Of a DNA stretch of 64,000 nt, positions 39,812-50,179 are shown piece after piece (position 1 is the stretch's first letter; each line of letters starts with the position of its first letter). Both the position numbers and the translations under genes were made by a program. The stretch lies in assembly GCA_001244265.2 (NCBI GenBank), contig CDLV01000007.1, positions 2,232,001 to 2,296,000 on the forward strand, read 5' to 3'. The notes under the pieces are model-generated. The model had not been told where the DNA came from. It worked only from the letters and a program-made list of their open reading frames with translations, and searched no databases. Origin of the DNA: Microbotryum violaceum (taxonomy: Eukaryota).

Positions 39812-40158
39812 GGCACTTTGGTCCCGAGGATGGCAACTCTGGTCCCACATCGGAGGTGACTCTGGTCCCACATCGGAGGCGACTTTGGGATCACATCGGA
39901 GCGGACTTTGGGATCACATCGGTGCGGACTTTGGGATCACATCCGAGGTCATTCTTGTACCACGTTCATGGGGACTTTGGTACCACATAGTGTAGAGGCC
40001 TGTATCTCTTGCAACATGTGATGTATCACTCTGGGGAATGTAGTATGATGCATGTACAGGTCTATAGTAGTTCTGGCGGGTGAGACGAGGCGGACAATGC
40101 AGTACTTGCTACATCGGGGTTCTTCCCCGCTGTGCCGCTCCGCGCCCGTGTCAGCGGT
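39812..40158 (+). repeat. Left terminal inverted repeat with 23-bp tandem subrepeats
   Basis: Units ACT(C/T)TGG(TCC/GAT)CACATCGGAG.. start at 39836, 39859, 39882, 39905, 39928, 39951 and 39974. The region matches the reverse complement of 49857-50160. Confidence 0.93.
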
Positions 40159-40659
40159 TAAACCTTACGCCGATCGTCACGAGGCAGCAAGCGTAGCTTG
40201 CAATAAATATCATAGGGTGGAGCAAATGTTTTTTTCTTGCTGACTAGAATACTTATGCGGTAATGGCATAATCACTACATGGGTGCTGTAGTGTTCCTTA
40301 GGCCTGCAATCGTTAGCACCCTTATTCGAGAAAATTCAAACATTCGGCGAAAGCCCTGGGGCCGCGCCAAAACTCGCAGGCACTCGTCGTTTGACGGGCT
40401 ACACCGGCAAACTCACGAATGCCCCTGAAAGCAGCTCCTTTCCTCAGAGCTTCACACGCTCACTGGTCTTTCCCCCCACTCTCTCTTTCTTCTTACACAT
40501 AACCAGTGGGAACCCGTTAAATTAACGGGAGGATGAAATCCAAAAAATAGCAGGATAATCGAACAGTCTACATGATAACAGCGCAGAGGTTAAGACAATA
40601 CGAAATACAGCAAAGAAACAAAATCTATTCATCTTACATTCATCGCCGAAACAGCCTGC

Positions 40660-42258
40660 GTGTCGCTTGTTGCCGGACTTGGCTTCAAACACTCGTGCGA
40701 TGAGATCCGGACGGTTGCATGCGCTATCGGCCCCAGTGCAGCCTTGGTTTCCGGTGAGTCGGGGTCGTACGTCATCGTGATCAGCAGCGGAGACTTTTCC
40801 TCTTTGACAACACACGCCATCGCATCCTGGTATCGCTGCGTGATGTCGCGATTTGGTTCGGGGTCAAGCCGTTGATGCCTTGGGTCGTGGTGAGGCGTAG
40901 GTTCTCTTGATGCAATCGGATGTGTTGAGTCAATCGGTCTTGACTTGGGAGTACATCCGTAATTCACGAACTCCAGAAAGGGACGTTGGGTGCAATGCGG
41001 GATTGAGATGTACTCGTCGCGTTTGGCAAGTGGTGCGCAAAGAATTGTGAACGCGAGACTCACCACCTCGACCCCTTTACTTGACCTTCGTCCTAGGTGT
41101 TCAAAAGATCAATGTCAGTCTGTGCTTGCGCCTTCGGCAGAATGGAACATCAGAGAAAGAGCCGAAGACGCGTACGTTCGCCATCACCATCCTCTTCGTC
41201 CCCTTCCTCGCCGTCTTCATCCTCATCGTCGCGGTCTTCGTCCTCCTGTTCGTCTTCGTCATCCAGACCGAGACCGGCAAGTACCTCGCGCAATTGGACA
41301 CCATTGTCGATCTGCTCTCAGTTTCTGGCGATTGGCGGCCTGGCTTGGTGGAACCCCGCAAAGAGGAATGTTGGGGTGGAAGCCATCTTCCCCTGCAGGA
41401 AAAAGTAGTGGGTAACGGAGAGGCATCGCGGACGGATGGAGCGAGCTAACGATTTGGTACTTGGGCCGACCATCGGGACATCGATCACCGTGCACCTGGA
41501 GAATAAGGTCTTGCGGTCCACGATCTCCCGTGTTGGTGTCGGAATCGCAGATAAGCATCGCCATTCCGGTGCTTGACGTAGGAAGGTTGTGGGTGCGTCG
41601 GTCCCGGCCTGGCGGGAGGCAGAGGCGCAGGATCCACTCTTTGGCCGTATCCCAACCTGCGCGAGCTTTGGCCGATGCAAACTCTCTCACAAAGCGATTG
41701 CCGGTGCGCAGAATGGACTCGAGCTTGGTCAAAGTAGATCGTTGCATGCGACTGTCTGCGCCGTCGGGTCCAAGTCGAGTGTCGGTGGCCTCGGCCGGGT
41801 CGATCAGCCATGTTTGAGCAAAGGTTGGGCGTTGAGTCACGGCAGGGATCAGGGCGCCGAGTCGATGGTAGAGGCGACCAAACACGCGAAACACGGGGGG
41901 TCCTAGTTCCCAGTGCCGAGCCTTGCAGTGGGTGCACACGGCCGTCTGCGGGCCGAGGTCGTCGCGGATCGAAACGTGGGCTTGAGGGGTTTCAGCGCGA
42001 TTCGAGCCCGGCGCACTCGCCTTTGCGGAGGTGGTGGTGAGGCGAGCCCAGCGTCGAGTTGGCCATCGCGCTGACCACGCTGTCCGTTGTGCACAGCTGC
42101 ACGGCGGGCTCGTATACGTGTCGCAATGCCAAGATCGGTTGAATTGTTGTCATGACACGCCGGGGGGCTGATTCTGTTGATCGGTGCGGGGCGAAGAGGA
42201 GGGTCGAGCCGCGGTACGGCGCTATCCTCGCGCCCTGGCGACCTTGGGACCGGGGCAT
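40660..42258 (-). pseudogene. Helitron Rep/helicase N-terminal fragment (frameshifted, internally deleted)
   Basis: CTHCKARHWE, GPPVFRVFGRLYHRLGALIP, FAQTWLID, PLRYPLLFPAGEDGFH, QRYQDAMA..LLITMTYDPDSPE and RPDLIARVF. These are characteristic Helitron Rep N-terminal motifs split over several frames. Confidence 0.88.
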
Positions 42259-42903
42259 TACACAGTAGCGAAGGTTTGTTCTTGAATGAGTGTCACTAAA
42301 ATTGGATGAGAGTGAGAGGGAGAAAGGAAAGGTTCGAGGGAGTGGCGCAGGATTATTTACGTGGTTTGATTTGTTGTTCAGCCCCTAATGCCGCTGGTCG
42401 ACTGCCGGAATGACACTCCACCGCCGGCGCACCGCATCACGTGACAAACGCCAGCCCTCGCCTCGCACGTCAGGCAGAGCTCTGCTGTAGAAGCAATATC
42501 ATGCAAAGCCACGCGCTTGCGGTTCATTAAATGCAATATGAGTGAAAGCATTGTTTTATGTGAGCGAAAAAAAGAAGGAAAATACTGGGAGCGCTGTAGC
42601 TTCGTTGGAACGGCGCGGAAAATACAAAAGTCACCACAGCGCTTGTACATGACTTCTGATCGGAACATGGACACCACAGGCAGGTGCGGCAGACACAACA
42701 GTATGCTGATACATCCACCACAGGCGGCCCAGAGGGCCGCAACCTAGTTAAAAACAGCGATTTTAGGTACATTCCTTAACTCACTTTTTTTTTACTAGTT
42801 AGGGTCAAGTCCTCACGTAAACACTCCTCCCTATCTTAGTCGCGCGGAAATACTGTGCATCTCGAGCAAACGACACCCAGTGAAGGGTTTACCTTCAAGG
42901 TAG

Positions 42904-48900: not shown

Positions 48901-49657
48901 AATGACTCACCCCTGATCTCATCACCCGGCCATTGTTTCGTGCGCAGGCTACAGCAGTGACGACGCGGAAGAAGTCTCACAACATCACAGTAAGTTCCAG
49001 GACAGAAAAAGCAACTTCTTGGCTTTGCTCGTGCCCTTGATTCCAGATTGTCACTCAATGATCCTTCCTCTCTTCGTGTCTGCGCCGCTCTAGTTTCCAC
49101 CCCTGTGTCTACGAGATCCGTAACTTTCGAGGGGTCGAGACTTGCAAGGAATGTTTCGTCCTCTGCTGACACAGTCATTATCCAGCACCCACAACCTGGC
49201 GGTTTGTAACACGTGGGATCTGTACAAGGAAACAATATGTCGACAGCACGAACTCGTCTTGCATCGGACCAATCCGATTCGCCCCCAAACCGACCAACGC
49301 TCGCCTTTCCTTCATTTTCGCCAGTATTCGCCACGCGCGATATCGAACACCTACCAAAGAAATGCAAGTACTCTGCGGTTCCTCAAGAGAGTAGCCCTTC
49401 CGCTGTTGTTACTCCCAGCAAACGGCGTCATTCGGCAGCGGAAAGCGTGACCCCGAGCTCCAATCGGCGGAAAGCTTGCTCGCAATGTCGAGACCGAAAG
49501 TTGAAGTGTGATCTAGGTCATCCATGCTCGAAGTAGGTACAGTCTAGTGTTTCATCATACCAAGAAAGAGCTGACAACTGGTTTGTTCACTTTGAGCAGC
49601 TGCACTAAGAAAAGGAGAGGTAAAGCGAGCCAAGTTTTTACATGTGAATACGTTTAA
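42904..49657 (+). pseudogene. MULE transposase polyprotein: C..C..H zinc-finger-like region, DDE core, SWIM finger, Ulp1-like peptidase, C-terminal Zn2Cys6
   Basis: DDE core: GLDSSWR (D), FMIDK (D), RLCQFHV (CxxH), TNNVTERAF (E). SWIM: CPCRAFKQTGNKCAHLWAC. Ulp1-like: VYDSL..PQQTDGNACGAFV. Zn2Cys6: CSQCRDRKLKCDLGHPCS|NCTKK..TCEY. Lesions: a frameshift near 44176, in-frame TGA at 47144, a frameshift near 47370 and in-frame TAA at 49207. The 5' start is uncertain. Confidence 0.85.
43203..43381 (+). repeat. 82-bp direct duplication (43203-43284 and 43300-43381)
   Basis: Two identical copies ACCTATTGTG...GAGTGCGTGGT separated by 15 bp. Confidence 0.95.
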
Positions 49658-49856
49658 ATATCGTTCAACTGCAATGATCATACAAGCAAAAGTCCGCCGA
49701 TGTCGAAGCGTGACTTATTAGAATCTGTATCTTCGCTCGATCTCTATAAACTGTTCTTCATGGATGAGAGAAGCGAGGGACCGGTGCCAATTCTGGTCTA
49801 ATCCGAGTCGGCGCAATCACGTTGGTGAGTGTCGGCCTTGGCGGTTCGGGCGCCGG

Positions 49857-50179
49857 ACCGCTGACACCACGGGCGCGGAGAGGCCAGGCGGGGCAGAATA
49901 TCGATGTAGTAGCTACTGCTTCGTCCGCTTCGTCTCACCGGCCAGAAGTACTATAGACCTATACATGCATCAAACTACTGTTCCCAGAGTGATACATCAC
50001 ATATTGCAAGAGATACAGGCCTCTACACTATGTGGTACCAAAGTTCCCATGAACGTGGTACAAGAATGATTTCGGATGTGATCCCAAAGTCCGCACCGAT
50101 GTGATCCCAAAGTCCGCTCCGATGTGATCCCAAAGTCGCCTCCGATGTGGGACCAGAGTTGGACGTGGGCCCAAAAGCC
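49857..50179 (-). repeat. Right terminal inverted repeat
   Basis: Reverse complement of the left TIR, with one fewer 23-bp unit. Confidence 0.93.

What the first reader, a model, noticed from the sequence alone, without database searches (positions are those of the whole stretch)
39812..50179. Large MULE whose transposase gene is extended with a Ulp1-like protease and a fungal Zn2Cys6 DNA-binding domain
Seen: long TIRs enclose one co-oriented, intron-containing reading path running zinc-finger-like region > MULE DDE core > SWIM > acidic linker > Ulp1-like (C48) peptidase > Zn2Cys6 cluster, ending ~200 bp inside the right TIR. Known: Ulp1-carrying MULEs occur in plants (Kaonashi-type), and SWIM fingers are common in MULEs. 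Inference: a terminal Gal4-type cluster on such a protein is unusual and may define a fungal family that uses deSUMOylation and a host-type DNA-binding domain for anti-silencing, targeting or TIR recognition. This copy is inactivated by stops and frameshifts.
Basis: partly seen in the sequence, partly recalled or inferred. Interest (0 to 1): 0.8.

Follow-up and report, generated by a model that had tools for sequence, protein, structure and literature searches.

The report
Fungal jumping gene with extra domains
This is a broken copy of a real, multi-copy cut-and-paste jumping gene of a smut-type fungus whose single large enzyme also carries a SUMO-removing protease and, unusually, a fungal transcription-factor-type DNA-binding domain whose job is still untested.

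Summary
The architecture is real and belongs to a family, not to this copy alone. The element runs 39783-50232 with a perfect 10-bp target duplication. The majority of genome copies gives one 1,622-aa frame in 18 exons: zinc finger, Mutator DDE core, SWIM, SUMO-protease (C48) domain and a terminal Zn2Cys6 cluster. Spliced contigs support 14 of 17 introns, but no single transcript is shown. This copy is dead: two stops, four 1-bp deletions and a solo LTR in exon 1. Transposase-SWIM-Ulp1 fusions are widespread in basidiomycete gene models. The cluster is confined to one Microbotryomycete clade (Microbotryum, Phenoliferia, and a relic in a sister family), so it is old. Its proposed roles got no support: CGG triplets are not enriched in the repeats or at insertion sites. 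The ends are asymmetric and the interior of this copy is flipped. Ten literature searches found no Mutator with a Zn2Cys6 domain; Repbase and Dfam could not be checked. The scan noted this family before elsewhere in this genome. Verdict: new variant of a known kind.

The parts
39773..39782 (.). Left target-site duplication GATAACAGAT
   Evidence: Identical 10 bp at 50233-50242
39783..39811 (.). Outer end type A (CGGAATT...). It normally lies at the gene's 3' side; here it is at the 5' side, so the interior is flipped
   Evidence: 3 of 21 gene-start arms fetched carry this end, 17 carry the other end, 1 unclear
39812..40150 (+). Left subterminal inverted repeat with 23-bp tandem subunits (39832-39948, 5.1 copies)
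   Evidence: 46 genome matches, 40 of 85 candidates scored
40503..42806 (-). Nested Helitron-like fragment, not part of the MULE
   Evidence: Absent at the empty site in other copies; its own repeat family elsewhere; hairpin + CTGG at its 3' end; Helitron_like_N only weak, E 0.0046, below cut-off
42904..49657 (+). Single transposase gene, 18 exons, 1,622 aa in the family majority; broken in this copy
   Evidence: 14 of 17 introns seen as joints in contigs; public models P0002-P0006
43160..43535 (.). Solo LTR (TG...CA, 5-bp GAGAG duplication, internal 97-bp repeat) interrupting exon 1
44164..44420 (+). N-terminal C-x3-C...C...H zinc finger (WRKY/GCM1-like by recalled pattern), followed by a helix-turn-helix-like bundle
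   Evidence: Conserved Cys/His in homologues; model residues 73-126 match homeodomain-type folds, Z about 6, weak
45037..46270 (+). Mutator DDE core: D474 (45040), D574 (45528), C599xxH602 (45706-45717), E757 (46266)
   Evidence: best fold match ISCth4/IS256, Z 11.6, rmsd 5.3, 269 aligned
46697..46745 (+). SWIM finger (CxC...CxH)
   Evidence: Pfam E 0.031, below cut-off; motif conserved in most homologues shown
47825..48690 (+). Ulp1/SENP-type C48 protease, catalytic H1255, D1272, Q1342, C1348 intact
49477..49645 (+). Zn2Cys6 cluster C-x2-C-x6-C-x5-C-x2-C-x13-C, split by intron 49533-49599
   Evidence: PF00172 over cut-off
49868..50159 (-). Right subterminal inverted repeat with 23-bp subunits
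50162..50232 (.). Outer end type B (reads GCACGCAC... inward), normally at the gene's 5' side
50233..50242 (.). Right target-site duplication GATAACAGAT

Best explanation
This is a dead copy of a recently amplified Mutator-type DNA transposon family of an anther-smut (Microbotryum-type) genome. SHOWN: one spliced frame fuses zinc finger, DDE core, SWIM, C48 protease and Zn2Cys6; the family moved by cut-and-paste into AT-rich 9-10-bp targets. INFERRED from known MULEs: the N-terminal finger and helical domain bind the subterminal repeats and the DDE core cuts and joins. INFERRED, untested: the C-terminal half is an accessory self-protection module. The cluster, on a long low-complexity tether, is a second DNA anchor that holds the SUMO protease near the element's own chromatin, where it strips SUMO from the transposase or from silencing proteins. 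I put the structural claim at about 0.93 and this role for the cluster at about 0.45.
For: Duplications in 7 of 9 end-paired copies. One open 1,622-aa frame from the majority of copies. 14 of 17 introns joined in contigs of runs X3/X5 (RNA is a guess, one study) and none in X1/X2. D-D-CxxH-E conserved in a 79-sequence alignment, matching the MULE signature in PMC5225508 (passages). Best fold match is an IS256 transposase. The protease profile is far closer to SENP1/2/Ulp1 (E 1e-29 to 1e-19) than to the NEDD8 protease SENP8 (3e-5) (fold agrees), with the triad intact. The cluster is old and kept: it ends 3 of 7 long Phenoliferia proteins whose core is only ~33% identical, survives as a relic with the same intron in a sister family, and all carriers fall in one clade, support 1.0. 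Against M. saponariae the cluster exon part is 88% identical (25 aa) and the linker before it 79%. Precedent for transposase-driven self-activation: 10.64898/2026.08.24.746577 (abstract and section 7).
Against: No binding site was found: CGG/CCG in the outer repeat 9 vs 8.8 expected; TCGGA-type sites (4 vs 1.4) and the inner repeat (8 vs 4.8) are only borderline, p=0.05 each, uncorrected. Among genome copies the cluster shows no purifying signal (2 synonymous, 9 non-synonymous; pN/pS 1.25), though these are mostly dead copies. In the sister family's deletion copies the cluster is frameshifted and lacks the third Cys. 4 of 7 Phenoliferia models and all Agaricomycete and Tilletia relatives examined lack it, so it is dispensable for the wider group. 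No protease activity or substrate was tested.
Confidence: 0.6

Rival explanations
1. The Zn2Cys6 cluster reads CGG triplets in the 23-bp subterminal repeats and so provides end recognition.
For: Most subunits carry a TCGG and CGG recurs at 23-bp spacing on one strand (39851, 39874, 39897, 39920). The cluster keeps the basic residues between Cys2 and Cys3 that contact CGG in Gal4-type proteins (recalled; Put3 alignment).
Against: CGG/CCG count equals the shuffle mean (9 vs 8.8). The sister family's repeats are CGG-poor (4 vs 6.8-7.5) and built on GGTGCA, although it descends from a cluster-bearing ancestor. The protein already has the N-terminal finger that MULEs use for this (PMC1702500, passages).
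Confidence: 0.15
2. The cluster steers insertion to particular genomic sites.
For: Family A and sister-family copies sit at the same position (offset 0-2 bp) in two other repeats.
Against: Flanks show no CGG excess (82 vs 91 expected, 37 flanks). The only signal is an AT-rich target (26% GC vs 56% background), which can explain shared sites.
Confidence: 0.12
3. The cluster is a captured host gene fragment (Pack-MULE style) carried as a near-neutral passenger.
For: MULEs capture gene pieces (PMC2528002, PMC4948706, passages). It is terminal, decayed in the sister family's copies and absent from most relatives.
Against: It is in frame, has six Cys, and is kept across lineages whose cores are ~33% identical while the linker before it falls to 24% identity even between sister families. 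A protein search of the genome with this exon returned only copies of the element, no close host donor (31 matches).
Confidence: 0.2
4. Protease and cluster are separate genes or a separate transcript that merely ride inside the repeats, as Kaonashi does.
For: No contig spans the whole gene; 3 of 17 joints are not displayed.
Against: The frame is continuous with canonical GT-AG introns and no intergenic gap. Independent public gene models in two Microbotryum species and Phenoliferia join the same parts.
Confidence: 0.07

Closest known systems
C48-MULEs / KAONASHI (KI)-MULEs of plants
   Same: Mutator transposase with SWIM plus a peptidase C48 (ULP) domain whose role is unknown (PMC4948706, PMC2528002; passages).
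   Different: KI is described as a second gene, reverse to mudrA in Arabidopsis non-TIR elements. Here the protease is in frame with the transposase and followed by a Zn2Cys6 cluster. MULE-ULP fusion models are also reported in rice (PMC12903978, passages).
Basidiomycete MULE-SWIM-Ulp1 gene models (Mycena, Favolaschia, Roridomyces, Lentinus, Tilletia)
   Same: Same core motifs and domain order; 25-38% identity.
   Different: None of those examined ends in a Zn2Cys6 motif. They are unnamed database models, not a described family as far as my searches show.
Muta1 of Aedes aegypti and other long-TIR MULEs
   Same: DDE + CxxH + W, long repeats with subterminal tandem units, 8-9-bp duplications, non-autonomous derivatives (PMC5225508, passages).
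   Different: 504-aa transposase without protease or cluster. Here the outermost 30-70 bp of the two ends are unlike each other.
IS256 family (ISCth4 transposase)
   Same: Best structural match to the predicted core, Z 11.6.
   Different: Bacterial, ~400 aa, 9% identity, no accessory domains.
Zisupton / KDZ transposons
   Same: Recalled: large intron-rich transposase with SWIM and a SUMO-protease domain; common in basidiomycetes (PMC5751038, passages).
   Different: No KDZ or CxC Pfam hit in any model. Core motifs are MULE-type. Duplications are 9-10 bp against 4-8 bp for Cryptococcus KDZ1-3 (PMC12810828, passages).

Membership tests
Mutator/MULE superfamily | [quoted passage not shown] | tested here: met
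   DSSWR / MIDK / LCQFH / W / TNNxxE conserved; definition in PMC5225508
Mutator/MULE superfamily | Core related to IS256/MULE transposases by fold or homology | tested here: met
   Top VIA hit ISCth4, Z 11.6, rmsd 5.3, 269 aligned; next is Hermes 9.8. Homologues P0022, P0031, P0088 pass PF10551. Foldseek had no hit at E<=0.001.
Mutator/MULE superfamily | Direct Pfam MULE (PF10551) match | tested here: inconclusive
   No hit for the window exons or P0001-P0006; only 3 of 29 long homologues pass, so the model is insensitive to this clade
Mutator/MULE superfamily | 8-11-bp target-site duplication | tested here: met
   7 of 9 end-paired copies: four perfect (9-10 bp), three with 1-2 mismatches; two have none
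Mutator/MULE superfamily | Long (>100 bp) inverted repeats at the ends, often with tandem subunits; non-TIR members also exist | tested here: met
   292 bp at 91% with 23-bp units; they start 30-70 bp inside dissimilar termini
Mutator/MULE superfamily | [quoted passage not shown] | tested here: met
   Cys/His patterns conserved; SWIM below the Pfam cut-off in the query, above it in P0029, P0030, P0052, P0054
Mutator/MULE superfamily | Demonstrated transposition | not testable with these tools
   Only indirect: dispersed copies ~98% identical with distinct duplications
KAONASHI-MULE | ULP domain encoded as a second gene, separate from the transposase | tested here: not met
   One frame across 18 exons; definition in PMC4948706
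Zisupton/KDZ | KDZ catalytic core with CxC domain | tested here: not met
   No such Pfam hit; MULE-type motifs instead
Peptidase C48 (Ulp1/SENP) | His-Asp-Cys triad plus oxyanion Gln and SENP fold | tested here: met
Peptidase C48 (Ulp1/SENP) | SUMO cleavage activity | not testable with these tools
   Sequence leans to SUMO over NEDD8 proteases; no assay
Zn2Cys6 binuclear cluster | Six Cys in C-x2-C-x6-C-x5-12-C-x2-C-x6-9-C spacing (recalled) | tested here: inconclusive
   Six Cys present and PF00172 over cut-off, but the last loop is 13 residues and Pfam matches only positions 1-27 of 39
Zn2Cys6 binuclear cluster | Binding to CGG-containing DNA | not testable with these tools
   No CGG enrichment in repeats or flanks; binding itself untested

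The most novel reading that the evidence does not exclude
A class-wide clade of fungal Mutator elements (Microbotryomycetes) built its own sequence-specific anti-silencing device into the transposase: a host-type Zn2Cys6 domain that docks a SUMO protease on the element's chromatin. This would be a fungal, single-protein counterpart of plant VANDAL/VANC anti-silencing. The elements would also be a large mobile source of transcription-factor domains: 15 of 29 Zn2Cys6 matches in this genome search are element copies.
Probability: 0.3. Interest if true: 0.78.

Novelty: new variant of a known kind. Interest (0 to 1): 0.52.

Why it matters
The role of transposon-borne SUMO proteases is an open question (called unknown in PMC4948706). 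This family puts the protease, the transposase and a small DNA-binding domain in one protein, and natural relatives with and without the cluster exist, so the question becomes testable by domain. It reverses the usual direction (transposase to transcription factor): a transcription-factor domain joined a transposase and was kept across a fungal class. In practice, about half of the Zn2Cys6 hits in this genome search are transposon copies, which inflates transcription-factor counts, and Pfam misses the transposase, so these elements pass as host genes.

Tried and rejected
CGG enrichment in the repeats and in 37 insertion flanks (10 duplicate or false flanks were dropped first): none. My first idea that P0006 is a second family was wrong; it is a frameshifted model of the same family. 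My idea that the sister family lost the CGG-contacting lysine along with its CGG repeats failed, since some copies keep it. Per-domain pN/pS among genome copies (0.43-1.26) reflects decay and cannot rank domains. No run on record as RNA was listed; RNA status of X3/X5 is a guess supported by GT-AG joints. Foldseek gave no E<=0.001 hit for the core. A homologue search with alignment A2 looked only at 3,983-5,000-aa proteins and found nothing, which is uninformative. A metagenome locus search could not be run with that alignment, so the DNA around the Phenoliferia genes (ends, last exon) was not seen. The Helitron-like frame had no phage match and the Atlas could not take it; its label rests on weak Pfam, repeat status and end structure. 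Literature searches returned no paper describing a Mutator with a Zn2Cys6 domain. Supplements were not read, and Repbase, Dfam and subscription journals were not searchable, so prior cataloguing is not excluded. No complex prediction was run.
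Full report
1. Observation. The inverted repeats are real: 39859-40150 and 49868-50159, 292 nt at 91%, with 23-bp tandem units at their outer parts. A search of the genome gave 46 matches to the left arm (40 of 85 candidates scored, so a lower bound); 14 of the 40 long matches lie on contig C2, which is 12% of the assembly. Aligning the ends of the copies moves the boundaries to 39783 and 50232, with the exact 10-bp duplication GATAACAGAT on both sides. 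Seven of 9 copies with both ends recovered have an 8-10-bp duplication; two have none and look recombined. The outermost 30 and 70 bp of the two ends are unlike each other. In 17 of 21 gene-start arms the GCAC end is outermost, but here and in two other copies it is the CGGAATT end. As the duplication is intact, the interior has most likely flipped by recombination between the repeats (inference).

2. Insertions. Two pieces inside the interval do not belong to the element. 40503-42806 is a member of a separate repeat family, absent at the empty site, with a hairpin + CTGG end on the minus strand and a weak Helitron_like_N match below cut-off. 43160-43535 is a solo LTR with TG...CA ends and a 5-bp duplication inside exon 1. 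Helitrons and LTR elements are the dominant repeats of Microbotryum genomes (10.1101/2022.08.03.502670, passages).

3. Gene. The interior 43536-49860 occurs at 97-98% identity in many places (64 matches, 36 of 302 candidates scored). I fetched 20 stretches and tested 16 loci against a gene model: 9 cover at least 98% of it. The majority sequence, with one G taken from all four read sets, gives a single 1,622-aa frame over 18 exons with 17 GT-AG introns. Contigs of runs X3 and X5 (one study, another organism code, RNA by guess) show joints at 14 of the 17 introns: nine listed as GT..AG and five with a few letters between. X1 and X2 show none. The window copy has two stops, four 1-bp deletions and the LTR. 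Every near-complete copy tested has at least one lesion, but several have no stop and only short indels, many in base runs, which may be assembly errors. TCG sites are mutated more often (0.176) than other CpG (0.094) or non-CpG cytosines (0.077), in line with the RIP-like process reported for this genus.

4. Domains. Homologues at 97-98% are Microbotryum gene models; P0002 carries PF02902 and PF00172 over cut-off. This places the window in an anther-smut genome (inference). PF10551 is not hit, but D-D-CxxH-W-E motifs are conserved over 79 sequences, three homologues pass PF10551, and the predicted core (pLDDT 84) best matches the IS256 transposase ISCth4 (Z 11.6). Foldseek found only weak P-element, RAG and Hermes matches. 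The protease keeps H, D, Q and C. Its profile matches SENP1/2 and Ulp1 at E 1e-29 to 1e-19 and SENP8 at 3e-5; the fold search ranks them the same way (pLDDT 72). The cluster has six Cys with a long, 13-residue last loop.

5. Distribution. A search of the 50% library gave 169 homologues of the core. Of 29 long ones scanned, 17 pass the C48 cut-off; named ones come from Phenoliferia, Mycena, Favolaschia, Roridomyces, Lentinus and Tilletia. So the transposase-SWIM-Ulp1 fusion is common in Basidiomycota. The cluster is narrower: 3 of 7 long Phenoliferia proteins end in C-x2-C-x6-C-x5-C-x2, breaking off where the Microbotryum intron lies, and none of the other long homologues ends so. The Phenoliferia last exon was not seen, and gene models can miss terminal exons. 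A sister family in this genome (57% core identity by its M. saponariae relative) exists as ~3.5-kb deletion copies with their own repeats and similarly asymmetric ends. It holds a frameshifted relic of the cluster with the same intron. In a FastTree tree (37 of 37 proteins, 387 columns, midpoint root) all carriers lie in one Microbotryum + Phenoliferia clade, support 1.0, interleaved with non-carriers. One old gain followed by losses or annotation gaps is the simplest reading; I did not test it formally. Fifteen of 29 PF00172 matches in the genome search are copies of this element.

6. Mechanism. Cut-and-paste by the DDE core into AT-rich targets (26% GC in the 10 bp next to the ends against 56% background) is well founded. 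CGG/CCG is not enriched in the outer repeat (9 vs 8.8), is depleted if anything in the sister family's repeat (4 vs 6.8-7.5), and is only borderline for TCGGA-type sites and the inner repeat (p 0.05, uncorrected). Flanks show none (82 vs 91). The two families share insertion positions in two other repeats, which the AT preference may explain. What remains is long retention next to an intact SUMO-type protease. I therefore favour an accessory role that anchors the protease on the element's own chromatin for self-activation or anti-silencing (about 0.45), ahead of passenger (0.2), end recognition (0.15) and targeting (0.12). Precedents: plant VANDAL anti-silencing (PMC12730594, passages) and AtMu1 transposase activating its own copies (10.64898/2026.08.24.746577, abstract and section 7). 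None of this is shown for this element.

7. Comparison and novelty. It meets the MULE tests that could be run. It is not a KAONASHI element, where the protease is a second gene (PMC4948706, PMC2528002), and not KDZ/Zisupton. Reviews of MULE architectures list SWIM, Zn-knuckle, AT-hook, OTU and PHD add-ons; no fusion to a C6 cluster appeared in the passages read (PMC1702500; PMC6446971; PMC5751038; PMC6416283 had none of the terms). Ten searches found no description of this architecture. It does exist unnamed in public protein records, and Repbase, Dfam and supplements were not seen. The scan's note e1-7165172 reached the same reading on another piece of this genome; I read it after forming mine and do not count it as evidence.

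8. Verdict. Real, a family-level and clade-level feature, and a new variant of a known kind. Interest 0.52; 0.78 if the cluster proves to be the targeting arm of a built-in anti-silencing module (probability 0.3).

Noticed in passing
window 39783-39811 and 50162-50232; L051, L059, L060, L061: Both sister families have dissimilar termini (GCA...ATAA at one end, GGAA...TAAT at the other) outside ~300-bp inverted repeats; the interior can flip relative to them.
   Followed up: partly
L051, L059, L060, L061 (G000 C1:1783445-1786937 and others): Sister MULE family present as ~3.5-kb deletion copies that keep the first exons, part of the protease and a relic Zn2Cys6 cluster.
   Followed up: partly
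L048, L022, L027, L028, L029: ~2.3-kb non-autonomous derivatives with 90-95% identical repeats but a 5' coding part only 73-81% identical, pointing to a third, diverged subfamily. Matching deletion joints appear in read sets.
   Followed up: no
L034 (G000 C6:890630-900813): Copy with gene-start arms at both ends (an internal inverted duplication) and an intact 9-bp duplication.
   Followed up: partly
L038, L039, L041, L042: Four copies share an ~890-bp insertion at window position 48949-48952; two lack duplications and two share an identical 200-bp flank, suggesting ectopic recombination between copies.
   Followed up: partly
G000 C9:1275152 / C1:1786937 and C2:1413936 / C4:75127: Copies of the two families inserted at the same position (offset 0-2 bp) in two other unidentified repeats.
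   Followed up: partly
G000 contig C2: Holds 14 of 40 long repeat matches on 12% of the assembly; it may be a non-recombining mating-type chromosome (not tested).
   Followed up: no
window 22926-26583 (+) and 30253-33540 (-): Two DEAH-box splicing helicase genes (Prp22-like and Prp2-like by recalled motifs) face each other; their shared helicase core explains the inverted repeats I2 and I4.
   Followed up: no
window 50450-51900 (+): A cytochrome b5 / fatty-acid hydroxylase-like gene (label recalled) starts about 220 bp from the element's right end, which could affect its promoter.
   Followed up: no
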